A stretch of 59,908 nucleotides of DNA, the filler included, from Nemertoderma westbladi (lineage: Eukaryota; Animalia; Xenacoelomorpha), in NCBI GenBank assembly GCA_032718475.1. It is 3 parts of 3 records of this genome, joined end to end, with 100 filler letters (N's around TTAATTAATTAA, not from the genome) between each part and the next. Parts side by side here need not be neighbours in the genome. Positions count along the whole stretch, not along the records: positions 53,152 to 59,908 come from JAUCBJ010000129.1; 2 more parts are not named here. The stretch is one strand, 5' to 3'. A program made the translations under genes and the position numbers. Each line of letters begins with the position of its first letter. Within the stretch, counting starts at the first letter, position 1. Positions 2,963 to 59,908 of the stretch are shown piece by piece. The notes below the pieces were generated by a model that ran no database searches, had not been told where the DNA came from, and saw only the letters and a program-made list of their open reading frames with translations.

Positions 2963-3673
2963 TTATGTAGCTGTTTCACACTCCATACGTCCGTTGTTCT
3001 CCCGGTATCGTCTGCTGCTAGTCCGAAATCTTCTACTCCCACGATCTTCTCCATTGAAACGACGTTTCAACGTGCTGAGCTGCGTAAAATTCGACGAGAA
3101 ATTAGAGCCGGATCTCCGAAACCGGTGCTGGTTGCTACGGCAACCTAACGCTTTGAGGAAAGCGCTGCGGAATCTTGAACTTACGATGTTGTATAATAAG
3201 GGGTTACTCGCGCTGTTAACGTAAATCATAAAGTTGCACAACGCTTTTATGATCATGTAAGTGTCTGCTGGGACATTATCGAATGCGTGGGTGGCGTAAG
3301 TAGTGAGAACGTTTAACATCCGTCTGGGTAGCCAGCAGAGGAAGAATACAGCTGTTACGGTGCCTACCATAGCTATAACTTGACGCCGTTGACGCATGCT
3401 CCGTGCCTTTGCCGTTATAGAACGACTGTCTGCGGTGACGGAATCATCCATTAGGCGTTTAGTTATCATTATGTACAGGAAACCTAGAACAACTAAAGGG
3501 ATGGCAAAGAACGTTATCTGTAGGATGATCTTGTAGGCCGGTGAGAGGTTCGACACTGAGCACTCCTCGTAACAATAGTGGTCATTAGGAACGGATATAT
3601 GGAGTTTGATGTGGGCTTGTACGCCTGTTGGAAGAGACGTTGCTATAGCAATCATCCATACACCAACCAATAC
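2963..3673 (-). CDS. Class A peptide GPCR, ETH-receptor/PRXamide-receptor-like, last coding exon (TM4-TM7 and C-tail)
   Basis: Acceptor cacttacAG|GTATTG, phase 0. Motifs FFAIPLVVLGFLY (TM5), RQVIAMVGTVTAVFFLCWLP (TM6) and YVNSASNPLLYNIVSSRFRSAF (TM7/helix 8). TAA stop at 2963-2965. Confidence 0.93.
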   Translation of the reverse strand, partial: VLVGVWMIAIATSLPTGVQAHIKLHISVPNDHYCYEECSVSNLSPAYKIILQITFFAIPLVVLGFLYIMITKRLMDDSVTADSRSITAKARSMRQRRQVIAMVGTVTAVFFLCWLPRRMLNVLTTYATHAFDNVPADTYMIIKALCNFMIYVNSASNPLLYNIVSSRFRSAFLKALGCRSNQHRFRRSGSNFSSNFTQLSTLKRRFNGEDRGSRRFRTSSRRYRENNGRMECETAT

Positions 3674-5224: not shown

Positions 5225-7760
5225 TAATCTTCTTTATTTCAGCATATTGCAGCCATATGGTACAGTAAAAGATAGATATATATTAATATTTAGCACAGAG
5301 TATCATACTGTAGTATAGTAAAATTAAATTAGGACGTAAAATAAAATAAATTAAATTAGTAAATGGACTATCTACATAATGTTATGAAGTTACTATATAA
5401 TACTGAGACTGGGCGACACACCAAGCGAACAGTAGAGATAATTGAGTTTATAGATTTATCAACACGTCTATGCAAACTACATAGAGCATGTCTATGTATT
5501 TCAATAAGTGATTTAATACCTAGATTAACAAGCATAGCACTGGCGCTCGTTAGGCAAACCAGTTTCAACATTAAATAAAGGTAAACGAAATAAATTTCTG
5601 ACTGTTTTGTTTATGGCGGTATGCAACTTATTAAAAACAGATTTCGTATAATATATTTTAGACCAGAGAGCATTACAATAAATAGTTGAGCAATATGTAG
5701 TATAAAGAAGTAACTTGATATGATTCGAGCAATTGGCAAACTTACGTATTAACATGTTAGCCCGTCCATAAAAACGACGCGTCTGTGCACCAATATCGAG
5801 GTCATCAGAAAAATCACTTGATATAATATGTCCTAAATACTTAAAGCTCTCCACGACTTTAAGTGGTTTTCCGTCCAAGATTATCGACGCGAAATCAAAA
5901 TGTTTTCGCATCTTACTGCGCATAAAAACGCACTTTGATTTAGCACCATTAAATTTCATACCGTTAGCAGATGCAAACTTGCTACAAATGTCAATGAGCT
6001 CTTGTAGAGCAATAGGTGTAGAGGCAATGATACAGATATCATCAGCATATATTAAATGGTTAATGCACATATCGTTTAAGGAACATCCAAGTTCAGATTT
6101 ACAAAGATCAATACTTAGTTGATTAATAAACAAATTAAAAAATTTAGGGCTAAGCGGGCTACCCTGTCTGACTCCATTGGAGCATGTGAATGGTAAGGAT
6201 TTAAAACCGTTCCATAGCACGATCATGGTTTGATTTGAATACATGAAGATAATAACCCTAATAATAAAAATCGGTACTTTACGTTCAAATAATCTAGAAA
6301 ATAATTTAGAATGATCTACATTGTCGAATGCTTTGGAAGCATCTAAGAAGGATATATACAAATTAGAACCATTAATTAAGTAATAATTAGTAATCTCTTT
6401 TAGCGTATAGACACAAAGTTCAGTCCCTAGTTTGTCTTTGAAACCGAATTGGTTATCTGTTGTAGCCAGTAAGCAATCAATTCGCCTTAAAATGAACAAT
6501 TCGTATATTTTACATATTATATTTGAAACCGCAATAGGACGGTAGTTACTCTTGTCTGTAGTATCACCGGTTTTATCTTTAATAACCGGTGATATATAAG
6601 ACGATATCATACTAGGAGATAAAAAACCATGAATATTAAAACCGGTAAAAATTAATGAAAAAAGCACCATAATCCGTTTACTGGCATAAATAATATGTTC
6701 CGCGGTTAGGTTGTCAGGACCGGACGCTTTATTTCTATCCAACTTCCGAATGAGCTCAGCGATTTCGTTTGGCGAAACTACCATATCCTCGGAAAAGAGA
6801 ATCTCTTTTAAGTACACTGCCTCAGCTATCGGTGGAGGTACTGAAGGGTGCACATGCGGATCGGAATTAGGTATCGTTGGGGGCACCGTAGGGGGCACCA
6901 GCGATGGTGTGGTAACCGTCGGAGACACCGAAGGGGGCTCCGATGTCGAAGGGGGCAGCCAGGTGGGAACCGCACCCAGCGGATTCGCCCAGGTTGAGGT
7001 TGGTATCGAAGCCGAAGTGGGCGCAGACGGGGGCACTGAACCCGATGGGGGCGTCCGGGTGGGCACCGAAGTCGAGGGGGCGCCCAGGTGGGTACCGAAG
7101 CCACAGGGGGCGCCCAGGTGGGCACCGAAGCCGCAGGGGGCGCCCAGGTGGGCACCGAAGCCGCAGGGGGCGCCCAGGTGGGCACCGAAGCCGCAGGGGG
7201 CGCCGAGGTGGGAAGCGAAGTCAAGGGGGGCACCCAGGTGGGCACCGAAGCTGCAGGGGGTGTCCAGGTGGGCACCGAAGCCGCAGGGGCGCGGGCGCCG
7301 GAGTTGTTGCTGAATTAAATATAGTGCGATAATGGAGTTCCCACATGTTAGCAATGTTCTGAGTGCCAGATGCTCCACCCACCGATTGTAGTCGCTGGAG
7401 GGGACTTTATCGCGTTGTCCTTCTTGACATTTTGCCAGAACTTATAACAGTTTTTATCCAATAGGCCTTCCGCTAACTAATCGCAGCGAATTGTTTCGGA
7501 GGTACGTTTAATAAGGCGCAGCTGACGTTTAAATTGTGCCCTCGTTGAGCACATTAAGTGGAACAGTGGGCCGTTCCGGGGGCTACCGTTCGCACGCCAG
7601 TCGAGGAAACTACAGCGGGCCATGCGATGGAGGTGGCTCACCTGGTCATTCCACCCAGGAACATATGTTTGGGTTGGACTACAGGCAGGTTTCGGGATGC
7701 TAACTGGGATATTACCCGTTACTGATGAATGCAGAGCAGACACTACTCCATTATATTTAT
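5225..7760 (-). mobile_element. 5'-truncated LINE (RTE-X-like) with a nearly intact RT domain, in the GPCR intron
   Basis: ORF 5525-7378 has KASGPD, NYRPIA, QFGFK, FLDASKAFD, GVRQGSPLSP, LIYADD, FKYLG and RRFYGRANMLIRKF. The upstream piece reads PGWND..FLDW..G.PR.GPLF..M. The 3' end is CTGAAATAAAG. Frameshifts and one stop are present. Confidence 0.9.
7055..7295. repeat. GC-rich 30-bp minisatellite inside the LINE ORF
   Basis: About 8 copies of GCAGGGGGCGCCCAGGTGGGCACCGAAGCC, decaying into related GC-rich sequence down to ~6830. Confidence 0.9.
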
Positions 7761-10823: not shown

Positions 10824-13006
<2,183 letters not shown>

Positions 13007-16311: not shown

Positions 16312-17958
16312 TTGGAACTAAGTTCGCTTCCATTTGAACTAAGTTCTCTTCCATATGAACTAAGTTCGCCTCCATTGGAACTAAGTTCGTTTCCATAGGA
16401 ACCAAGTTCGCCTCCATTGGAACTGAGTTCGCTTCCATAGGAACTAAGTTCGCTTCCATTGGAACTAAGTTCGCTTCCATAGGAACTAAGTTCGCCTCCA
16501 TCGCTTCCATTGGAACTAAGTTCTCTTCCATAGGAACTAAGTTCGCCTCCATTGGAACTAAGTTCGCTTCCATAGGAACTAAGTTCGCTTCCATTGGAAC
16601 TAAGTTCGCTTCCATTGGAACTAAGTTCACTTCCATTGGAACTAAGTTCGCCTCCATTGGAACTAAGTTTGCTTTAATTGGAACTACGTTCACTTCCATT
16701 GGAACTAAGTTCACTTCCATTGGAACTAAGTTCGCCTCCAGTGGAACTAAATTCGCTTTTATTGGAACTAAGTTCGTTTCCATTGAAACTAAGTTCGATC
16801 CATTGAAACTAAGTTCGCTTCCTTTGGAACTTAGTTCGATTCCATTGGAACTAAGTTCGTTTCCATTGGAACTAAGTTCACTTCCTTTGGAACTAAGTTC
16901 GCTTCCATTGGAACTAAGTTCACTTCCATTGGAACTAAGTTCGCCTCCATTGGAACTAAGTTTGCTTTAATTGGAACTACGTTCACTTCCATTGGAACTA
17001 GGTTCACTTCCATTGGAACTAAGTTCGCCTCCATTGGAACTAAATTCGTTTTTGTTGGAATTAAGTTAGTTTCCATTGAAACTAAGTTCGCTTCCATTGA
17101 AACTAAGTTCGCTTCCTTTGGAACTAAGTTCGCTTCCATTGGAACTAAGTTCACTTCCATTGGAACTAAGTTCGCCTCCATTGGAACTAAGTTCGCCTAC
17201 ATTGGTATTAAGTTCGCTTCCATTGGAACTAAGTTCACTTCCATTGGAACTTAGTTCGCTTCTATTGGAACTAAGTTCGTTTCTATTGGAACTAAGTTCA
17301 CTTCCATTGGAACTAAGTTCGCCTCCATTGGAACTAAGTTCGCCTACATTGGTATTAAGTTCGCTTCCATTGGAACTAAGTTCACTTCCATTGGAACTAA
17401 GTTCGCTTCTATTGGAACTAAGTTCGTTTATATTGGAACTAAGTTCACTTCCATTGGAACTAAGTTCGCCTCCATTGGAACTAAGTTCACTTCCATTGGA
17501 ACTAAGTTCGCCTCCATTGGAACTAAGTTTGCTTAAATTGGAACTAAGTTCACTTCCATTGGAACTAAGTTCACTTCCATTGGAAATAAGTTCGCCTCCA
17601 TTGGAACTAAATTCGCTTTTATTGGAACTAAGTTAGTTTCCATTGAAACTAAGTTCGCTTCCATTGAAACTAAGTTCGCTTCCGTTGGAACTAAGTTCGC
17701 TTCCATTGGAACTAAGTTCACTTCCATTAGAACTAAGTTCGCCTCCATTGGAACTAATTTCGCCTCCATTGGTATTAAGTTCGCTTCCATTGGAACTAAG
17801 TTCACTTCCATTGGAACTAAGTTTGCTTCCATTGGAACCAAGTTCGCTTCCATTGGAACTAAGTTCACTTCCATTGGAACTAAGTTCGCTTTCATTGGAA
17901 CTAAGTTCGCTTCCATTGGAACTAAGTTCGCCTCCATTGAAACTAAGTTATCTTCCAT
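16312..17958. repeat. 21-bp minisatellite, ~78 copies
   Basis: Unit GGAACTAAGTTCGCTTCCATT with an internal dyad GAACT-A-AGTTC. It produces the MEANLVP and LELSSLP ORFs. Confidence 0.97.
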
Positions 17959-19135: not shown

Positions 19136-20820
19136 AGAATCTTTTAGGCTCAATAACCAAAGAAATGACTGTTCCCACTATGGGTGATCTTCCACATTAA
19201 ACCCTTCTACACTGTTTCCTAAAGGAATGCCTGTTCACCACCATGGGTAATCTTCCACAGTAAACCCTTCCACTCTGTTTCCTAAAGGAATCCCTGTTCA
19301 CAACCATGGGTGATCTTCCACCTTAAACCCTTCCTCTCTGTTTCCCAAAGGAAGGCCTGTTCACCACCATGGGTGATCTTCCACAGTAAACCCTTCCACT
19401 CTGTTTCCTAAAGGAATGCCTGTTCACCACCATGGCTAATCTTCCACAGTAAACCCTTCCACTCTGTTTCCTAAAGTGATGCCTGTTCACCACCATGGGT
19501 GATCTTCCACAGTAAATCCTTCTACTGTGTTTCCTAAAGGAATGCCTGTTCACCCCCATGGGTGATCTTCCACAGTAAACCCTTCCACTCTGTTTCCTAA
19601 AGGAATGCCTGTTCACCACCATGGGTGATCTTCCACAGTAAATCCTTCCACTCTGTTTCCTAAAGGAATGCCTGTTCACCACCATGGTTGTTCTTCACCG
19701 GTAAACCCTTCCATTCTGTTTCCTAAAGGAATGCCTGTTCACCGCTATGGGTGATCTTCCACAGTAAACCCTTCCACTCTGTTTCCTAAAGGAGTGCCTG
19801 ATCACCACCATGGGTGATCTTCCACAGTAAACCCGTCCACTCTGTTTCCTAAAGGAATGCCTGTTCATCACCATGGGTGATCATCCACAGTAAACCCTTC
19901 CAATCTGTTACCTAAAGGAATGCCTGTTCACCACCATGGGTGATCTTCCACAGTAAACCCTTTCATTCTGTTACCTAAAGGAATGCCTGTTCACCGCTAG
20001 GGTTGATCTTCCACAGTAAACCCTTCCACTCTGTTTCCTAAAGGAATGCCTGTTCACAACCATGGGTGATCTTCTACAGTAAACCCGTCCACTCCGTTTC
20101 CTAAAGGAGTGCCTGTTTACCACCATGGGTGATCTTCCACAGTAAACCCTTCCCCTCTGTTTCCTAAAGGAATGCCTGTTCACCACCATGGGTGATCTTC
20201 CACAGTAAATCCTTCCAATCTGTTACCTAAAGGAATGCCTGTTCACCACCATGGGTGATCTTCCACAGTAAACCCTTTCATTCTGTTACCTAAAGGAATG
20301 CCTGTTCACCGCTAGGGTTGATCTTCCACAGTAAACCCTTCCACTCTGTTTCCTAAAGGAATGCCTGTTCACAACCATGGGTGATCTTCCACAGTAAACC
20401 CGTCCACTCCGTTTCCTAAAGGAGTGCCTGTTTACCACCATGGGTGATCTTCCACAGTAAACCCTCCACTCTGTTTCTTAAAGGAATGCCTGTTCAACGC
20501 TATGGGTGATGCTCCACAGTAAACCCTTCCACTCTGTTTCCTAAAGGAATGCCTGTTCACCACCATGGGTGATCTTCCACAGTAAACCCGTCCACTCTGT
20601 TTCCTAAAGGAGTGCCTGTTTACCACCATGGGTGATCTTCCACAGTAAACCCTTCCGCTCTGTTTCTTAAAGGAATGCCTGTTCACCGCTATGGGTGATG
20701 TTCCACAGTAAACCCTTCCACTCCGTTTCCCAAAAGAATGCCTGTTCACCGCTATGGGTGATGTTTCCCAGTGAACCCTTCCACTCTGTTTCCCAAAAGA
20801 ATGCCTGTTCACCACTATGT
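19136..20820. repeat. 60-bp minisatellite (~27 copies) amplified from a dispersed repeat
   Basis: Unit AAGGAATGCCTGTTCACCACCATGGGTGATCTTCCACAGTAAACCCTTCCACTCTGTTTCCTA, preceded by the AGAATCTTTTAGGCTC head also seen at ~1213 and ~51935. Confidence 0.95.
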
Positions 20821-27514: not shown

Positions 27515-29835
27515 TGTAGATAGATAGATTTATTTATACATTATGTAAAAACAATAACAAATACACCAAACAATGTACCGGTATAAAGGTATTGTCCAAC
27601 ATAACATATAGGATTACCCCTAAAGCTTTGCAGCTTATTTCCAAGGGGGTCCTTTATGTTACTTGACTTGGTTACAAATACAATATAAAAATTCGCTAAC
27701 CTAAAACCAATATAAAACGTAATTACACTATGTACATGTACAACTTTACCGAGAGCGTGACAATGTCAAGTTTGGGGTAAATCCATAACGGACAATACTA
27801 AACAACTAGTACCCAGTTACACCAGATCAAAATTTAGACATAGAAGGAGGAGGAGGCGAAAAGTTTATGATGTTGTTTCAATAACAAACATTTTTAAATT
27901 GCACAAACACCAACAGAAAATTATTTCAATAATTCAACATCGCGATCTTAATTTTTCACCACCTACACTTAATCACATTTTTACTCAACAAGTAGCTATC
28001 CTCTCCTTTAAGTCTATCCGTAATATAACCCCCCATGGGATATTGCCCGACCTATTAACACCCGTTTCAAATGTACACACCCATGAGACAAGATCCTCAC
28101 AATCTCAAAATGCGTTCCGTCTACGAAATTGGCTAAAAATCCAAACTCAATCTATTTACTCTCTAGCACCAGTAATTTGGAATGGTCTACCTCTTGCAGT
28201 GCGACAGTCTAGCGGATTATTACAATTTAAGTACAAATTAAATAATTTCTTAAGGGGTACTACATAACTACAACGTAAGTATCAATTTCACTTGTTTTCT
28301 ATAATTATTCCGCTAGTTATTGTTATCATTTAGTTATTATAATTTTCCCTTGTTTTCTATATTCTGATAGTTATTGTTATCATTTAGTTATTATAATTTT
28401 CACTTGTTTTCTATATTCTGCTAGTTATTGTTATTCTATGTATCAATAATAAATTTAAACATATTAATGTACGTATTATAATTAGTTTTGTCGCAAAGTA
28501 AGCTTTTTGTAGGCCCATTTTAAGAATTGTATAATGTTACTGTATGTATATTGTTTGTTTGTTTAAACTGGTGTCTGAAATAATGGGATCCTCCGTGCAG
28601 GCACCAGCCACGCAAATCTAATTCAATTATTTTAAATTCACAATGTAATTAAATACTATATTATTAATAATAATAGCTTGTTTCTATCAGTTCATATTAT
28701 TGTGTTGTGCATGCATTATTATGTCATTTAATATCAATATTTGTGTGGGAATAGTTTAATAAAAGTTAAAGTTAAACGTTAAAGTTAAATGTCCGACTCA
28801 ACGATAAAGATGTAATGTACAGAACAATTTATTATAAAACGTAATTACAGTATAAATAGTAAATAATTAATAAACTAATAACTTACTGTAAGACTATTGT
28901 ACCTATTTTTACATTGCACACCGAGGTGAGATTTAACTGCAGATTTAAAAGAATGTTGATTATCTAGGTTTTTAATTTCATTAGGCAGAGCGTTCCAATT
29001 TTTAATGCCGTTAAAAAAGAAAGTATCAGATTCAAAGGATTTACAATTCGGGAGGTATAAGTTTGAAGCACTAGCTCTGGTACTGTAAGAGTGTGTATCG
29101 CGTACTCTGTTGAATTTTTGTTTTAGGTAATTGGGATATTTGCCATTATACACTTTATGCACATGGTTAAGGCGTAGCTGCTTAACTCTACTATCTAAGT
29201 TAAGCAGTCCAGAATCAGAAAAGTCATCTGGAGTTAGGTGGTGCCTAGGTTTGTAGTCTTTAATAAATCGTACTACTTTATTCTGAGCTACTTGTAATTT
29301 ACATTTAAGCTGTTTGGTTAAGCCTTCATACCAAGAAGAGCACGCATAGTCCATGTGACACTGTATTAAAGAAGAGCAAAGTAACTTGCGGGAGTCGGTA
29401 TTTAAACTATTTTTATTTCTGTATAGAAACCTAAGCCTACTGTTAACTTTCGAGAAAATATTTTTCACTGTACTTTCTCCTGATAAGCAGTTATCCAATG
29501 TGGCGCCTAAATATTTAACTTCCTTTTTATTTTCAATCTTATGTCCATTACTAGTGACTTCAAACTTAGTTACCTTCTTTAACTTTCTTTTGGAACCAAA
29601 CAAAATACTTTCAGTCTTACCGTAGTGAATGGATAGCTTATTATCAACCAACCACTCATTACAGGATTCTAGAACTGCACTTAACTTTTGGGAAATACGG
29701 ATAGGATCTTTATGAGAGAAAATAAGAGCACTGTCGTCGGCATATAAAATGAGTTTAAAATCGGGATCTATACTACTTATCATATCATTTACATAGCATA
29801 CAAAAAGAAGAGGACCTAATATACTACCTTGCGGA
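27515..29835 (-). mobile_element. 5'-truncated L2-group (Crack/Daphne-like) LINE with an interrupted 3' UTR
   Basis: ORF 28875-~29835 has PQGSILGPLLF, LYADDS, WLVDNKLS, KTESILFG, KYLG, DYACSSWY and WNALP. The 3' end AGGACCCCCTTGGAAATAAG..AAATAAATCTATCTA lies at ~27515-27655. Confidence 0.85.
27880..28789 (+). mobile_element. CR1/L2 3' fragment inserted in the preceding LINE's 3' UTR
   Basis: Peptide VHTHETRSS..APVIWNGLPLAVRQ..FKYKL. Includes a ~44-bp triplicate at 28290-28435 and an (AAGTTA)n tail at ~28760-28789. Confidence 0.7.
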
Positions 29836-49760: not shown

Positions 49761-50257
49761 CTGCAACAAATAAAAATTAAATATTGATAGACACAATATT
49801 TTGAAAAGAAAATATAAAAGTTAACGAATCAACCCCAATTTCTGACTCCCTGCAGTGGTCTGAGTTGTTAAATAAGTGACCAAATAATAATATATAGTTA
49901 GCTTGCCTACTAGCTTGCCTACTACGATTAACAGCTAACAAACAAGTATAACCAGAAATAATTTATTTTAACTCAAACTCGACCTGGTACTAGTAAGAAT
50001 ATAATTATGGGTATATTGTTCTTATACCAAGTATTGTAGCTTCAAGTAATCAAGTAAATAGTCAGTAAAAATAGTCAGTTCAAGTAAATATCAAGTAATT
50101 TCTCTACCAATTAAACCAAAAGTGAAATGTAATTTAAAAAATTCAATTTAAAAAGACCAGAATGTTACCAGTACACAATGCAACCAGAATGTTGTCTCGG
50201 TACGGTATGCATTAACAAATCAGTATGTTAGCAGCTCACATGTGTATGTGTTTTTCT

Positions 50258-50696
50258 GATAACAGCTGCACGGTACTCTGTATATCTTATAACAGCTGCA
50301 CGGCACTCTGTATATCTTAAAACAGCTGCATGGTACTCTGTATATCTTATAACAGCTGCTTGAAACAGCTGCACGGTACTCTGTATATCTTAAAACAGCT
50401 GCATGGTACTCTGTATATCTTATAACAGCTGCATGGTACTCTGTATATCTTATACCAGCTGCACGGTACTCTGTATATCTTATAACAGCTGCATGGTATT
50501 CTGTATATCTTATAACAGCTGCATGGTACTCTGTATATCTTATAACAGCTGGACGGTACTCTGTATATCTAATAACAGTTTGACTGTACTCTGTATATCT
50601 TATAACAGCTGCATGGTACTCTGTATATCTTATAACAGCTGCATGGTACTCTGTATATCTTATAAAAGCTGCACGGTACGCTGTATATCGAATAAC
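50258..50696. repeat. 30-bp minisatellite, ~14 copies
   Basis: Unit ATAACAGCTGCATGGTACTCTGTATATCTT; source of the VIRYTEYHAA ORF. Confidence 0.95.
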
Positions 50697-51124
50697 ATTA
50701 AAATGTGAGATATACAATTCCTTATTCACCAAAAATGAGATGTGGCACCCAAATTTTGGAATTTTTTAAAAGTGTCATAAATCGGGTTGATTGATGGATG
50801 GCGATAAATTGATTAATGCACATTTAGCGATTCAGTACCATAAAACATCACCACTTATTTCGTTTTATCTAATGTTTGTAATTCCAAAATATTTTATCCA
50901 CTTCCTTGTCTTCTTAAGTGGCATGTGGATCAATTTTAATGCGTTGACTTTTCAGCCATTTTAATGAGAATCGCAGAAAACCCTGAAAACAATGTTGAAG
51001 ACAATACGTAGAACATTTTACAGGAAAATCTAACATTTTAGTTTCGTGGTACACCATAGATAGTACACCCCAAACGTTTTATCTTTTTAATGTAAATCCG
51101 GTCCAGTCGATTCAGGAGTTTTGT

Positions 51125-54606: not shown

Positions 54607-55035
54607 CTGGACGCAAATCCCGTCTTGGCGAATTAATATCCCGCCTCAATGTTAAATTCTCAATTTAAGGAAAGGAGCACGTTCACCCGGGTGAAAATCA
54701 TTTATCACCCGGGTGAAAATCATTTATCACCCGGTGAAAAACAATTATCACCCCGATGAAAAATATTTCAATGTTTAACTATGAATTTCGTTTATTGTTT
54801 TGGTTAGAATAACATGCCACTATAACCTGATCCTTTTCCTTAATTGATTACTAACATTCGTCGAGATATTAATTCGTTAAGAGCTGAAGGGTGAATCTGG
54901 ATCAAAGTGAGCATTCAATATTATTTCTAAGGTAACTAACTAAATGCGTTCAGTGTTCTGACACAGGTTTTTCAACCGGGTGATAAATGTTTTTCACCCG
55001 GGTGATAAATGTTTTTCACCCGGGTGAAAAATAAT
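54607..55035. mobile_element. Rearranged MITE fragments with ~21-bp palindromic TCACCCGGGTGA repeats
   Basis: The 54607-54680 and 54790-54885 blocks match the 4.4/14.3 kb family in opposite orientations. TCACCCGGGTGA arrays occur at 54682-54765 and, inverted, at 54968-55030. Confidence 0.6.
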
Positions 55036-56234
55036 TTTAAAAATAGAAATAATTGTCCCCAATCAGACACCGTAGGTGTGTGTGGGTAGTGTCCGCATTT
55101 TGTGATATAGGCCTGTACGCGGGGTAGGTTATAGATGGAAATTCCAGGAATTAGTGCATACAGACTTTATAAACGGCCATATACTATTACTAGTTACTAC
55201 TATATAAATATGCATATGATATGTAATGCAATTAAACCTCACGCTATTATTATTAAAATTAAGTAATTATCGATATATTTCTGTGTGTCAAAAATAGTGA
55301 ACCTGATTTTCAATCCTGAGAATAATTATATATGTACCCTTCTTCTGGGGGCAGTACAATTTCAGGGCAGAAAATACGGATATTTAATATTTTGTCCAAG
55401 TACAGCACAGCATAGCAAGCACACTAGTATATACGGTCGGTACTTCAAGTTTTTTTTAAGTGCCAATGGAAAAGCACGAGGTAGGCCTCAACCAAATAAA
55501 CTAAATGGAAACCTAAATCAAAGTTAAGGTTTACTGTATTATTATAGAGTCTACTTAAAAAAGAATGAAAAAAAAATTAGAAAACTGACATGATGACCAA
55601 GTACAGTCAGTACAATAGGGTTGAGTATAGTGGCGGCACAGATGATTTGTATTAGTGGCATTTGGGAGGTCAACTAGGCTAACACTCAAATAACAACAGT
55701 AATAATAAGACATAAATAGGAGACATAAAACATACTTCTGTACTTGGTGGTAATACCCAGAATACCAGGTCTACCTAATACAAGAGCTGCTATCCGAACT
55801 GTTAGAGTGTCAAAGCTCCAACCTCTAAAGGTCACCAGTTCCCGTTCCCGCCTGAACGTCAATGCCGACTTGCTATGCTGTGCCTAATGAAAATTAGAAT
55901 ACCAGTATTGACAGTTAGTAAAGACATCAATACAAAAAAAAAACTCAAAGGTGTGTGTCAGGTCCGATATTTGGAGTATTCAGATTTTTTGTTTTCTTTA
56001 TGGAAAAGAAATATACATACATGAATACACACATATATAAATACTCACCCATGTTCGGCATCCCTGTTAAACTGAAAGTATATCGAGACATGTAATTTCA
56101 TCATAAGAAACACCATCACCATCAGTTGGGTCAGTATATTTGTTACAACATGCATGCATTTGATAAATCACAAGGTACCAGTACAACAATGCATGTTACT
56201 ACACTGAATTACAGAAATGGTGTTATCATTACGA

Positions 56235-57572
56235 TTACTCCATTAAGTTTGCATGTGTTGATCTTGCTTCATCAATCAGGTCTGATGGACGTCTCTCACA
56301 TATATGGCTGATACTGGCGAGAAATCCTCCTAAGTCATCAGCCTTGTTGGATGAAGATGCCAACGTTGTTTCAATGTGTCCGTTAATCATTTCTTTAACA
56401 AGATTGTAAGCGAGTGATTCCTCATATCTGTAAACTGAAAGAAAGATCATCGCATTGAAGACGACACGATGGGTTTGGAAAAGTAACCCAAATAGGCTTA
56501 TACACCTTTTGGTTATGTTGCAGCTGCTTTGGGAGGTTACAAGGGTGAGTATATCTGCAATTATCAAGCTTGCAGGTGCTAGTTCCAACTGAATTGAGTG
56601 AGTACTCACATTTGAAAAGAATAAAAGGAGGATTTTAAGGAGTAGGTACTCATTATCTGTAATTCCAAGATGATAGAAGCAGTTAACCAGGTTGAATAAA
56701 CCATTAATGATGTGCTCGATGGCAGGACGGTCTTCAGATGACAAGAGAGATAGTGCTTGAGATCGGGATAATATTAAATTAGGAGCAAATTGGAGGGTAT
56801 CAGCTGAAGAATCAAAACGAGCAGATGATGCAGCTACATTGAGAACAAACAGGTAAAGCCAGGAGGATTCAATCAGCTGACACTGTGTTCCATGGGTTAG
56901 GGAAATAAACAATGGGATGCGTTTCGCCCAATTAATAAGAAAAACAAGGTTGCAGTCAGCAAGGAGTGAGAGCGCTAGGAGAAAACCCTGACGGGAGAAA
57001 GTTGCTAAGTCATAGTTGATATCTGAATCTGATAGGGGATTCGTAAGTTCAATGTTCTGCAAATGAGCAAGGATCTGATGCGCTTCAGAAGAAATGTCCA
57101 TAATCACACTATATGGGGATTTGATGTGTTGATTATGGCTATCATCAAACCCTGAAAATTTCTGCTCAATTGGTTCTGGGAATTCATATTTTACAATAGG
57201 CCTACCAGGTTTTTTATCACTAATTCTAACTGTCTGACTGCGACCACCACGTTTTCGATCCTCTCGTACCATTTTCGTTTGCATTCCCAATTCCAAACAT
57301 TTACAGAAGCGACATGACTGACAGTTTTTCCGCGTGAATTTGTTCATAAGGCATTTGTTGCCAGAGAAACAAGAAAATTTAATGCGAAGTTGAACAGTTC
57401 TGCGAAAAAATGCTTTACATGATTCACATGTGAGGGCTCCATAATGGTGGCCAGTAGCTATATCTGCACATACCAAACAGATACGTTGAGGTTTTTCCCT
57501 GTATGGACCATTAAATATACACACTGGTTTATCACCATTACATGTGCCGTCACATTCAAAAGGCTCAGACAT
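56235..57572 (-). CDS. Intronless nuclear receptor, NR3-like (ER/ERR-related), 445 aa
   Basis: Two C4 zinc fingers (CLVCADIATGHHYGALTCESCKAFFRR..CQSCRFCKCLELGM) and CTE VREDRKRGGRS. LBD signature LADCNLVFLINWAKRIPLF..Q..LIESSW, LQFAPNLIL, and AF-2 LVKEMI. Confidence 0.93.
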   Translation of the reverse strand: MSEPFECDGTCNGDKPVCIFNGPYREKPQRICLVCADIATGHHYGALTCESCKAFFRRTVQLRIKFSCFSGNKCLMNKFTRKNCQSCRFCKCLELGMQTKMVREDRKRGGRSQTVRISDKKPGRPIVKYEFPEPIEQKFSGFDDSHNQHIKSPYSVIMDISSEAHQILAHLQNIELTNPLSDSDINYDLATFSRQGFLLALSLLADCNLVFLINWAKRIPLFISLTHGTQCQLIESSWLYLFVLNVAASSARFDSSADTLQFAPNLILSRSQALSLLSSEDRPAIEHIINGLFNLVNCFYHLGITDNEYLLLKILLLFFSNVSTHSIQLELAPASLIIADILTLVTSQSSCNITKRCISLFGLLFQTHRVVFNAMIFLSVYRYEESLAYNLVKEMINGHIETTLASSSNKADDLGGFLASISHICERRPSDLIDEARSTHANLME

Positions 57573-58017
57573 TATTATTCAATTTAGTTTTCCATTGCAT
57601 TCCATACAGGGCCTACACAGCTGCTACAGCCCTAATACCTGAATACAGTGCAGCAGTAGCAGTACGGGGTACAGCTGACCAGTAATATATAGGCCTATTT
57701 CTCTAATAATGTAGATACTTTGTCATTGCAGCATTGTGATGTAGGCAGGCCGGAGCAGGGACGTATTAAGGGGGGTGCAACAGGTGCTTTCGTTGTCAAG
57801 GTGCTGCAGGCACAATTTGCATGACAGATAACCTTATCACAAATATACAAAATGTGGTATAGTATGGCCTATAGTACACTGGTACATACTTTGCCAAGAT
57901 TCAGTTTATGGTAAACAAATTAAATTCGAGGAAATGGAAGAATCTTTTCAATTTCTGTTAGCGAATTCAATTCCGCTAACCACCCCACAAAGTTGGACAA
58001 GCAGGGCCTTTAAGCAA

Positions 58018-58536
58018 TATTGGGGAGTACGAGGTTGATTGCCAATCGACCTCGTATCACCCCAATAAACGGGGACGACAAACCCCAAAGGGCACACACA
58101 CAACGGGGGTCAGAGGTTACACCTCCGGGAGAGGGAAAGTGACAGTGGAGGGGGAGAACACTCCCAGAGAGATGGGAGGGCGAGAATTAGGTTATTAGCC
58201 AATGGGGGGCAGGCATCCGCTGAGTAATATGGCCAACCTAGAGCAGTATATTACCAGTTGTTGTTTCTCATATCATTCACTTAGTTAGTCAGTTCAGTTA
58301 GGGCAGAACGGCAACCTTTATTACCGTCCACTGCCGCCACCATCATCAACTATTTTACCGGTGTTTCATTCACTTACTTAATTCAATAACTGTGTCTATG
58401 CTTTATTCATTCACTATATTTATACATATTAATCAACAACTTCAGAACTCTCAATCCAATAGAACTCTTTTCTACACACGGCGGGGACGCGTAAATAAAA
58501 CCAACCAACCGGTCGGGATTCCCGGATCCCGTCACA
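58018..58536 (+). mobile_element. Putative 5' LTR of a BEL/Pao element
   Basis: Sharp rise in GC, CATTCACTTAGTTAGTC tract, AATAAA at ~58494, and a CGTCACA end followed by GTAATAAAAG and the gag ORF. The left boundary is uncertain. Confidence 0.55.
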
Positions 58537-58597: not shown

Positions 58598-59908
58598 ATG
58601 AGCCAGGGAGGAGAGACAACAACGCCACGGACCCCGGACGATACGAACGAAACAATCCGCGAGGCCGCGACGCGGCGGTACTGACCCAGGACGCCGGAGT
58701 CGTCAACCCCGAACGATCCGGCAGCCCAAGTGGAGGGCGGTCATCTACCAGAGGAGAGAGACAAGTCGACACACGACGGCGGTCGACGTACCGATGTCGC
58801 CGGCCAGCCACAGGCTGAGGGTGATGGATGGCCCACCAGAATGGCGACGGTGGAGCCGCCGGTACAACGCCGAACACGGAGAGAGAGAGGAGATGTCAGC
58901 GACGAGGACGTCAGAGTTAGCGACCGGCTCCGACGGGCCTACAACGCAACCAGGAAGCAGCTGAGGGAAGCTAAAGGTGGGGCGAAGATAGACAAGGTGA
59001 AGCTAGAAAAGCGGCTAGGTGAGTCGAATAAACATTTTGATTATCTGGTGCGCTTTGGGCAGGGAGAACTAGCCGATGAGAGAGCGAGAGGGGTCGCTAC
59101 GGAACTGTTTGAACTGTGGGAATATAGGGGTATGGAGCCCGGCGTAGTGTACGTAGGGCCATACTTAGTCGATGCCCGGGGAATTAAGTTAGTGGGTTGG
59201 AGAGGACCGCAGGAGGGCGAATCCGAGGTTAACCCCGAGGATTCGGTCTCGTCGGTCGGCGAAAATTCCAGGAAGCGGGGGAAAGTTAGTAGGACGGGAA
59301 GGCGGCGGGAGTCCGTCGCGACCGATAAGTCTGCTACATCCTCCGCAAAAGTAAGACGGGTGCTAGAAATAGATCTGGCGTGCCAGCTCGATCTGGCGTG
59401 CCAGCTCAATCTGGTGGCGCTAGACCAAAGAGAATTAGAAAGGCAGTTGGAAGAAGGGAGTGCGTTACTAGAGAAAGAGAGAGAGAGCTGGCCAGAGAGA
59501 ATAAAGAGAGGGCCGAGAGGGTCGCGAGAGAGCTTTAAGGAGTGTGAAGAAATAGGAAGGAGGGAAAGGAAGGAGCAAGAAGAGCGTGAGGCAGCGAGAG
59601 AGGCGATAGGGGAGAGGGCTGAGAGTGAACATAAAGAGCGTGAGGCGAGAGAGGAGAATGAACGTAAAGAGCGTGGAGCGAGAGAGGAGAATGAGCGAAG
59701 AGAGCGCGAGGCGAGACGACTTGAGAGAGTTAGAGAGGGGCGGAATTGGCCGAGCAGAGTTCACGAGAGGACAGGGAGAGAGAGATAACGGGAAAACGTA
59801 TGCGGGATGACATGCACGCCCGGTTGAGGGGACTTATGCAGTACCAGGCAAAACAGAAGCGCCGACTGGAACTGGCGCAGATGGGCTGTCAGAGAGCGAG
59901 GCTGGCTC
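58598..59908 (+). mobile_element. BEL/Pao-type gag N-terminal region (disrupted), continuing past the window
   Basis: ATG at 58598 is in frame with ORF 58730-59788 across one TGA. The motif VNPEDSVSSVG..S..SSA followed by an E/R-rich coiled coil is typical of BEL gag. Confidence 0.7.

What the first reader, a model, noticed from the sequence alone, without database searches (positions are those of the whole stretch)
56235..57572. Intronless ER/ERR-like nuclear receptor with a non-canonical CESCKA P-box and a remodelled ligand pocket
Seen: a single uninterrupted 445-aa ORF containing both zinc fingers and the LBD. Known: ER has P-box CEGCKA, ERR CEACKA and 3-ketosteroid receptors CGSCKV, while CESCKA is typical of NR1J (HR96/DAF-12). 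Yet the CTE (VREDRKRGGR) and LBD (LAD..LV..INWAKR.P, FAPNL.L) here look like ER/ERR. By eye, the ERalpha E353 position is Asn (ADCNL) and the R394 position is Ser (VAASS), so the estrogen A-ring clamp appears lost. Inference: a retroposed or lineage-specific NR3 subfamily with a novel DNA-element and ligand specificity.
Basis: partly seen in the sequence, partly recalled or inferred. Interest (0 to 1): 0.8.

Follow-up and report, generated by a model that had tools for sequence, protein, structure and literature searches.

The report
Rewired single-exon steroid-receptor relative, duplicated
This animal gene encodes, in one exon, a distant relative of the estrogen receptor that has lost the three residues that grip estradiol and carries a DNA-reading helix known from lab-made weak variants, so it likely reads DNA and is switched on differently from its known relatives.

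Summary
The ORF is real (minus strand, 445 aa, both zinc fingers and a full ligand-binding domain), and E353 is Asn, R394 Ser; H524 is also lost (Phe). A two-domain tree puts it inside NR3 (97/99) on a long branch, outside the ERR clade. Its ligand domain sits best among ER-type receptors; the DNA-binding domain alone resolves nothing. Placement inside NR5A/B or beside NR1J is rejected, a stem NR5/6 placement is not. New: a second intron-free copy (about 85% identical) lies in the same runs, keeps CESCKA and diverged under purifying selection (dN/dS about 0.1 in the DNA-binding domain). E-S-A is the P-box state that, engineered into the ancestral steroid receptor, binds DNA weakly; this protein keeps an ERR/NR5-type RGGR minor-groove hook that would compensate. 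No close relative exists in the protein collections. Earlier unchecked notes suggest a xenacoelomorph worm, a fast-evolving group, which lowers the surprise. Ligand and DNA site are untested. The scan's notes showed no earlier report of it. New variant of a known kind.

The parts
56235..57572 (-). Single-exon ORF, 445 aa, NR3-type nuclear receptor (P0010)
57282..57479 (-). DNA-binding core, two C4 zinc fingers (residues 32-97)
   Evidence: Pfam zf-C4; best solved matches are ERR DBDs, E about 1e-29
57411..57428 (-). P-box CESCKA (residues 49-54); unchanged in the second copy. Arg57 replaces the Lys found in all NR3/5/6/7 rows
57327..57344 (-). KR box (residues 77-82), NKFTRK here, DKHTRK in the second copy; ER-line type is DKxRRK, ERR type T/NKRRRK
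   Evidence: PMC10484738 section 16
57240..57269 (-). T-box/A-box extension with RGGR AT-hook (residues 102-111), shared with ERR and NR5
   Evidence: role of the hook from PMC10484738 passages
56352..57110 (-). Ligand-binding domain (about residues 155-407), complete helical sandwich in the model
56949..56951 (-). Asn208 at the ERalpha E353 position
56826..56828 (-). Ser249 at the ERalpha R394 position
56442..56444 (-). Phe377 at the ERalpha H524 position; same in the second copy
   Evidence: number 524 from alignment to ER rows and PMC3886901
56382..56408 (-). Helix 12 / AF-2 (residues 389-397) with the charge-clamp Glu394 kept in both copies
56234..57504 (.). Span matched by a second, intron-free copy elsewhere (about 85% identical over 56234-57022 and 57236-57504; 213 bases of hinge replaced by 201, frame kept; likeness ends at the stop codon)

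Best explanation
This is an intact single-exon NR3 (steroid-receptor family) gene, likely a fast-evolving offshoot of the ER/SR line that lost its introns and then duplicated, and it is predicted to be an estrogen-insensitive transcription activator that binds 5'-extended AGGTCA-like half-sites. Shown: the ORF, both domains, NR3 placement, the second copy, purifying selection, the changed residues. Inferred step 1: the E-S-K-A helix grips the major groove weakly and the RGGR hook in the minor groove makes up the affinity, as in ERR and NR5, probably without the ER-type head-to-head dimer because D-box and KR box have drifted. Inferred step 2: with E353, R394 and H524 replaced the pocket cannot hydrogen-bond estradiol; since it is not plugged the mollusc way and the coactivator clamp is kept, it most likely takes an apolar, non-phenolic lipid or sterol, or needs none.
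For: NR3 97/99 with ERR 98/96 closed against it; ligand-domain tree NR3 90/95; ligand-domain placement 0.915 inside ER-type branches; group profile scores for the ligand domain ER 112, ERR 84, NR6 60, NR5B 53, NR1J 7 bits; best solved ligand domains by sequence are ERalpha/beta. The second copy has ER-like states: DKH in the KR box, Gly at 521, Asp after the helix-12 Tyr. Hand-counted differences between copies: DBD residues 34-102, 23.5 silent on 42 sites against 15.5 replacement on 165 (dN/dS about 0.10); residues 352-436, 14.5 on 55.7 against 23.5 on 199.3 (about 0.40); together p about 1e-7 against neutrality. Residues 49-63 show no replacement and four silent changes. glu-SER-ala is low-affinity in AncSR1 (PMC4500092 section 11). 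R394C alone abolishes estrogen activation of amphioxus SR (PMC2527136 passages). Mollusc plugs W415, F525, F536 are absent (Ala273, Leu378, Ala388, PMC3886901 passages). Lys217 and Glu394 of the clamp are kept.
Against: The branch is very long (2.48 changes per column) and its place inside NR3 is open: sister to ER+NR3C at only 71/44. The DBD is most like ERR (profile 114 against ER 91) and alone excludes no group. On a fixed backbone the joined domains do not reject the stem of NR5/6 (AU 0.55), and freely re-optimised constrained trees rejected none of nine placements. A column tally of the ligand domain gave 5 NR3-only against 8 other-group-only matches. No cnidarian NR3E, placozoan NR3F or xenacoelomorph sequence was in the trees. 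Positions 353 and 394 of the second copy were not seen (table cut). Pocket volume was not computed. No DNA binding, ligand or expression of the window copy was tested.
Confidence: 0.5

Rival explanations
1. It is a separate, old NR3 lineage (sister to ER+SR or to all bilaterian NR3) kept only in this animal group, so its odd residues are partly ancient rather than derived.
For: Best joined-domain placement on the fixed backbone is the NR3 stem (AU 0.85) and the free tree leaves it outside ER, ERR and NR3C. It keeps the extension shared by ERR and NR5/6/7. A small hydroxyl residue in the KR box is otherwise described for cnidarian NR3E (PMC10484738 section 16).
Against: Long branches drift to stems; the ligand domain alone prefers the inside of the ER-type clade. 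NR5B, NR7 and NR1J rows also have Thr there, so the KR likeness is weak.
Confidence: 0.2
2. It is a highly derived ERR retrocopy, a ligand-independent activator of extended half-sites.
For: DBD identity is highest to ERR (57%), solved ERR DBDs are the best DBD-only hits, the RGGR hook is ERR-like, and CESCKA is one step from CEACKA. The ERR stem is not rejected (AU 0.32).
Against: ERR is a closed clade without it (98/96; 97/96). ER-over-ERR columns in the ligand domain 7 against 1. The second copy's KR box begins DKH, not T/NKR.
Confidence: 0.15
3. It works as a decoy: it binds response elements or partners but cannot be activated, and so represses another NR3 receptor, as amphioxus ER does.
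For: R394C alone turns amphioxus SR into a competitive repressor (PMC2527136 passages); here 353, 394 and 524 are all changed.
Against: The AF-2 clamp and helix 12 are kept, and a weak P-box is a poor competitor for DNA. No target receptor is known in this genome.
Confidence: 0.1
4. The two sequences are orthologues from two look-alike species mixed in the samples, or the window copy is a relaxing duplicate on its way to silence.
For: Depths of the two copies differ between runs (about 7 against 53 in X2; 31-34 against 31-40 in X1), flanks are unalike, and run X5 holds only the second copy. At replaced DBD sites the second copy matches the ER or ERR consensus six times, the window copy three times (hand count).
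Against: Both copies occur in samples of two studies with the same difference counts (77-78, 43, 43). The window ORF is unbroken over 445 codons. Contig depth is no copy number. Either way the shared P-box and the selection signal stand.
Confidence: 0.15
5. It belongs with NR5/NR6 (or is an NR1J DNA-binding domain joined to an ER-type ligand domain).
For: CESCK and VREDR..RGGR are NR5-like; eleven helix residues equal those of DAF-12 (PMC7343802 passage); the DBD alone sits best beside the single NR1J row of the 50-row set; the NR5/6 stem is not rejected.
Against: Inside NR5A or NR5B AU 0.017, beside NR1J AU 0.036 (joined) and 0.000 (ligand domain). With nine NR1J rows the DBD goes to NR3 (80). 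HYG, RTVQ and the extension are not NR1J states, and the NR5A continuation after RGGR is absent.
Confidence: 0.07

Closest known systems
Invertebrate ER-type receptors (NR3D of molluscs, annelids, brachiopods; hemichordate ER-like)
   Same: Ligand-domain motifs and best ligand-domain placement; extension close to that of Ptychodera ER-like P0048; His524 replaced by an aromatic residue as in oyster ER.
   Different: P-box CESCKA for CEGCKA; Asn/Ser at 353/394; no mollusc pocket plugs; no introns; only 26-30% ligand-domain identity.
Estrogen-related receptors (NR3B)
   Same: Highest DBD identity (57%) and the RGGR hook that reads the 5' extension.
   Different: P-box Ser for Ala, KR box not KRRRK, outside the ERR clade, ER-like helix 12.
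AncSR1 glu-SER-ala recognition-helix variant (Anderson et al. 2015, PMC4500092; section 11 and passages read)
   Same: The same three P-box states.
   Different: That is an engineered single mutant, weak on all 16 elements; this is natural, shared by two selected copies, in a far diverged background with Lys32 changed to Arg and an RGGR hook.
Amphioxus BfER (PMC2527136, passages read)
   Same: ER-line receptor with R394 lost and, there, no estrogen response.
   Different: BfER keeps the ER P-box and introns (PMC2529310 passages) and acts as repressor; here the P-box is changed too and 353 and 524 are lost.
Macrostomum divergent NR3-like receptors (PMC8363021, passages read)
   Same: Lineage-specific receptors with atypical P-boxes in a fast-evolving worm; six were filed under NR3 by one group. 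One Macrostomum row (P0001) also lacks both clamp residues.
   Different: No close sequence likeness; their P-boxes were not seen by me, so a match to CESCKA is not excluded.
NR1J (HR96/DAF-12)
   Same: Recognition helix TCESCKAFFRR.
   Different: Everything else; likely convergence.

Membership tests
NR3 (whole subfamily) | Groups with ER, ERR and ketosteroid receptors in a two-domain tree | tested here: met
   97/99; ligand domain 90/95; DBD 80. NR5/6 stem not rejected by AU.
NR3A/NR3D (ER-type) | P-box CEGCKA | tested here: not met
   CESCKA in both copies; feature from PMC2529310 passage
NR3A/NR3D (ER-type) | Glu353 and Arg394 A-ring network | tested here: not met
   Asn208, Ser249; second copy not seen
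NR3A/NR3D (ER-type) | Nests inside the ER-type clade | tested here: inconclusive
   Ligand domain yes (0.915); joined tree outside it (83/90), ER stem not rejected (AU 0.20)
NR3A/NR3D (ER-type) | Conserved introns in DBD and ligand domain | tested here: not met
   Single ORF; feature from PMC2529310 passage
NR3B (ERR) | P-box CEACKA and KR box T/NKRRRK | tested here: not met
NR3B (ERR) | RGGR AT-hook in the extension | tested here: met
   Residues 108-111; shared with NR5, so not diagnostic
NR3B (ERR) | Nests inside the ERR clade | tested here: inconclusive
   Outside at 98/96; ERR stem AU 0.32
NR3C (ketosteroid receptors) | P-box CGSCKV, Gln at the 353 position | tested here: not met
   NR3C stem placement not rejected (AU 0.65, two long branches)
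NR5A/NR5B | P-box CESCKG and nesting inside NR5A or NR5B | tested here: not met
   Ala for Gly; AU 0.017 inside either group; feature from PMC8363021 passage
NR1J (HR96/DAF-12) | P-box CESCKA | tested here: met
NR1J (HR96/DAF-12) | Groups with NR1J | tested here: not met
   AU 0.036 joined, 0.000 ligand domain (one NR1J row); profile 6.6 bits
NR3E (cnidarian) / NR3F (placozoan) | Groups with NR3E or NR3F | not testable with these tools
   No such sequence was recognised among the hits; the defining paper is not held
Retrogene | No introns where relatives have them | tested here: met
Retrogene | Poly-A remnant and target-site duplication | tested here: inconclusive
   None found; longest shared flank word 10 bases; old retrogenes lose these
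Retrogene | Intron-bearing parent in the genome | not testable with these tools
   No genome held
Any NR3 | Measured DNA element and ligand | not testable with these tools
   Needs SELEX/EMSA and reporter assays

The most novel reading that the evidence does not exclude
A distinct NR3 subfamily from one of the earliest-branching bilaterian groups, sister to the ER and steroid receptors, that has fixed the E-S-K-A recognition helix judged an unlikely intermediate in ancestral-protein experiments, rescued by a minor-groove hook, and that answers to a non-estrogen lipid: a natural test of how background changes open closed paths in steroid-receptor evolution.
Probability: 0.2. Interest if true: 0.78.

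Novelty: new variant of a known kind. Interest (0 to 1): 0.5.

Why it matters
The steroid-receptor recognition helix is a model case of protein evolution, and the glu-SER-ala step was measured as weak and called an unlikely intermediate. A natural receptor pair that keeps it under selection lets one test directly whether the RGGR hook or the Lys-to-Arg change permits it. If the animal is a xenacoelomorph, the gene also bears on what NR3 receptors and ligands early bilaterians had; my paper searches found only a mention of an annotated acoel ERR. Against this, divergent receptors with odd P-boxes are common in fast-evolving worms.

Tried and rejected
No genome held, so no parent, paralogue or synteny search. 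Word-index searches: 9 weak hits of 6969 candidates, 2 of 873 shorter, 1 of 3 for the DBD region; longer proteins were not searched by index. HMMER over 1.84 billion representatives: 9447 hits, best 150 seen, none closer than ordinary ERR/ER or multi-finger proteins. Metagenome contigs: 0 of 119 candidates confirmed. ESM Atlas gave only generic nuclear receptors and a generic GPCR, no taxon. No RNA holder listed for the window copy; X5 does not cover it; neither is evidence on expression. Freely re-optimised constrained trees were too noisy: AU rejected none of nine placements for the DBD and for the joined domains, and only NR7 for the ligand domain; I moved to placement on 95 branches of a fixed backbone, where 45, 28 and 24 of 95 branches stayed unrejected for DBD, ligand domain and joined domains. 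The fold search ranks ER and ketosteroid domains together (Z 28.6-29.4), but the model was built on an NR3-only alignment, so it is not counted for subfamily. Rows dropped: 25 proteins with several or no regular zinc-finger motifs and 2 irregular ones left 133 of 160 for the DBD tree; 101 ligand domains passed the gap filter; 50 hand-picked rows made the joined trees. Group labels were set by P-box and extension motifs, so counts of P-boxes within groups are circular and not used; 30 rows were looked up by name and the named ones fit, except the 'NR7' label, which is recalled (sources call those rows ERR2 or RXR-like). Paper searches found no description of this gene or of an NR3 with CESCKA; most subscription papers, including the NR3E paper, are not held, and the supplement of PMC10484738, which maps NR3 motifs, could not be read. 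ESKA was not found in the main text of two library papers or one supplement.

Full report
Observation. The window is animal DNA rich in satellites and retroelement pieces. The ORF runs 57572 to 56235 on the minus strand, 445 codons, closed at both ends. It holds a C4 zinc-finger pair and a ligand-binding domain; an AlphaFold model (mean pLDDT 79.7, NR3-only alignment of 64 rows) shows both folds complete, with helix 12 in place. The P-box is CESCKA. Alignments to ER crystal chains give Asn208 for E353 and Ser249 for R394, confirmed in a 57-row alignment in which no other row has these residues and only one (a Macrostomum protein) lacks both usual ones. H524 is Phe377. So all three polar contacts to estradiol are gone (role of 353/394 from PMC2527136 passages; of 524 from PMC3886901 passages).

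A second copy. Laying contigs of four runs at 80% likeness showed a second sequence, about 85% identical, over 56234-57022 and 57236-57504, with 201 bases in place of 213 in the hinge, no gap in the ligand-domain piece and likeness ending at the stop codon. X1 and X3 are plainly DNA (a nearby repeat is about 1000 times deeper than the gene), so this copy is intron-free too. X5, from a third study, holds only the second copy in one 2955-base contig, and there the repeat is shallower than the gene; I infer that X5 is RNA, but it is on record as 'DNA?'. From the listed differences (36 of 43 in the DBD piece; the first 38 rows at the 3' end) and the window's codons I counted by hand dN/dS of about 0.10 for residues 34-102 and 0.40 for 352-436, 0.21 together (simple site counts, no transition correction). 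The P-box and helix 49-63 are unchanged, seven of eight zinc cysteines could be checked and are kept, and no stop appears in the 154 codons examined. The stretch with positions 353 and 394 was cut from the table. Whether the copy is a paralogue or the orthologue of a co-sampled species is open; its presence in samples of two studies favours a paralogue.

Relatives. None is close. Index searches gave a few weak hits; the HMMER scan's best full-length hits are ERR and ER proteins at 30-38% identity. Among the 191 proteins held, CESCKA occurs 14 times in 11 proteins, and only this one joins it to the DR..GG extension. Earlier unchecked notes on the same genome point to a nemertodermatid or acoel worm and mention an intron-bearing nuclear-receptor gene; I could not test the taxon.

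Placement. The DBD alone (133 rows, quick tree) falls in NR3 at 80, is nearest ERR by identity (57%, against 53% NR5A) and excludes no group. The ligand domain falls in NR3 at 90/95, outside ERR, and 0.915 of resampling support lies inside the ER-type clade. Joined domains under a mixture model give NR3 97/99, outside ERR (98/96) and outside the ER-type clade (83/90), sister to ER+NR3C at 71/44. On a fixed backbone, nesting in NR5A, NR5B, NR6, NR7 or beside NR1J is rejected (AU 0.012-0.036), while the stems of NR3, ER+NR3C, NR3C, ERR, ER and NR5/6 are not. The extension is an old shared feature, not an ER/ERR mark. The second copy's states (DKH in the KR box, Gly521, Asp538) lean to the ER/SR line, where DKHRRK is the common early form (PMC10484738 section 16).

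Mechanism. DNA: E-S-A are exactly the states of the AncSR1 single mutant that bound all 16 elements weakly, still preferred the ERE, and was called an unlikely intermediate (PMC4500092, section 11 and passages; agreed by PMC11105156 passages). The Lys that contacts the ERE bases in AncSR1 (bioRxiv 2025.01.28.635160 passage) is Arg here, making eleven helix residues equal to DAF-12's. The protein keeps the RGGR hook that in ERR enters the minor groove 5' of the half-site (PMC10484738 passages), and NR5 receptors pair E-S with the same hook. I infer binding to extended half-sites with the hook supplying affinity; a shifted core sequence is possible but unshown. Ligand: estradiol binding is unlikely. 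The oyster's constitutive plugs are absent, several pocket residues are smaller (E to N, R to S, M388 to V, F425 to I) and two larger (L387 to F, G521 to A), and the coactivator clamp is kept, so an apolar ligand or none is my best reading; a decoy repressor like amphioxus ER is the rival.

Known or new. It is an NR3 receptor that fails the defining motifs of ER, ERR and ketosteroid receptors. Precedents exist for each kind of change: R394 loss in amphioxus, F524 in oyster, atypical P-boxes in Macrostomum (PMC8363021 passages). The combination, its conservation in two single-exon copies and its match to a tested weak intermediate I did not find in print (ten searches listed under Tried and rejected; PMC8222990, PMC7827873 and PMC11521371 seen as passages only, the first mentioning an annotated acoel ERR). 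Verdict: new variant of a known kind, interest 0.5.

Noticed in passing
window 56733-56760: The two copies share an identical stretch where their contigs break, and silent divergence differs between DBD (about 1.0) and 3' end (about 0.3); possible gene conversion or noise.
   Followed up: no
run X2, window 55500-57900: The window copy and its flanks are about 7 deep, the second copy 51-55, unlike X1 and X3; amplification bias, mixed sample or presence/absence variation.
   Followed up: no
window 57950-58500: High-copy repeat about 400 bases upstream of the start codon, up to about 1000 times single-copy depth.
   Followed up: no
window 56050 (minus strand): A strong splice-donor-like site 185 bases after the stop codon; a 3' UTR intron is possible.
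   Followed up: no
window 2963-3655 (-): 3' part of a rhodopsin-family peptide-receptor-like GPCR (Pfam 7tm_1); Atlas gave no taxon.
   Followed up: partly
window 5525-6784 (-) and 28875-29783 (-): Reverse-transcriptase pieces of non-LTR elements.
   Followed up: no
window 11162-13006: A perfect (TAG)x615 microsatellite; further satellites of 20, 21, 63 and 30 bases at 1-800, 16312-17958, 19159-20819 and 50255-50697.
   Followed up: no
window 58685-59788 (+): A 315-367 aa charged, coiled-coil-like ORF without Pfam hit, perhaps the first ORF of a mobile element.
   Followed up: no
window 54683-54762 and 54967-55032: Two short 22-base tandem arrays built on a palindromic core.
   Followed up: no
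P0012: A stick-insect protein with three zinc-finger domains, one with CESCKA outside an NR1J context: the P-box can arise independently.
   Followed up: no
P0048: The Ptychodera ER-like protein has Gln and Lys at 353 and 394 and a GG extension, unusual among ER rows.
   Followed up: no
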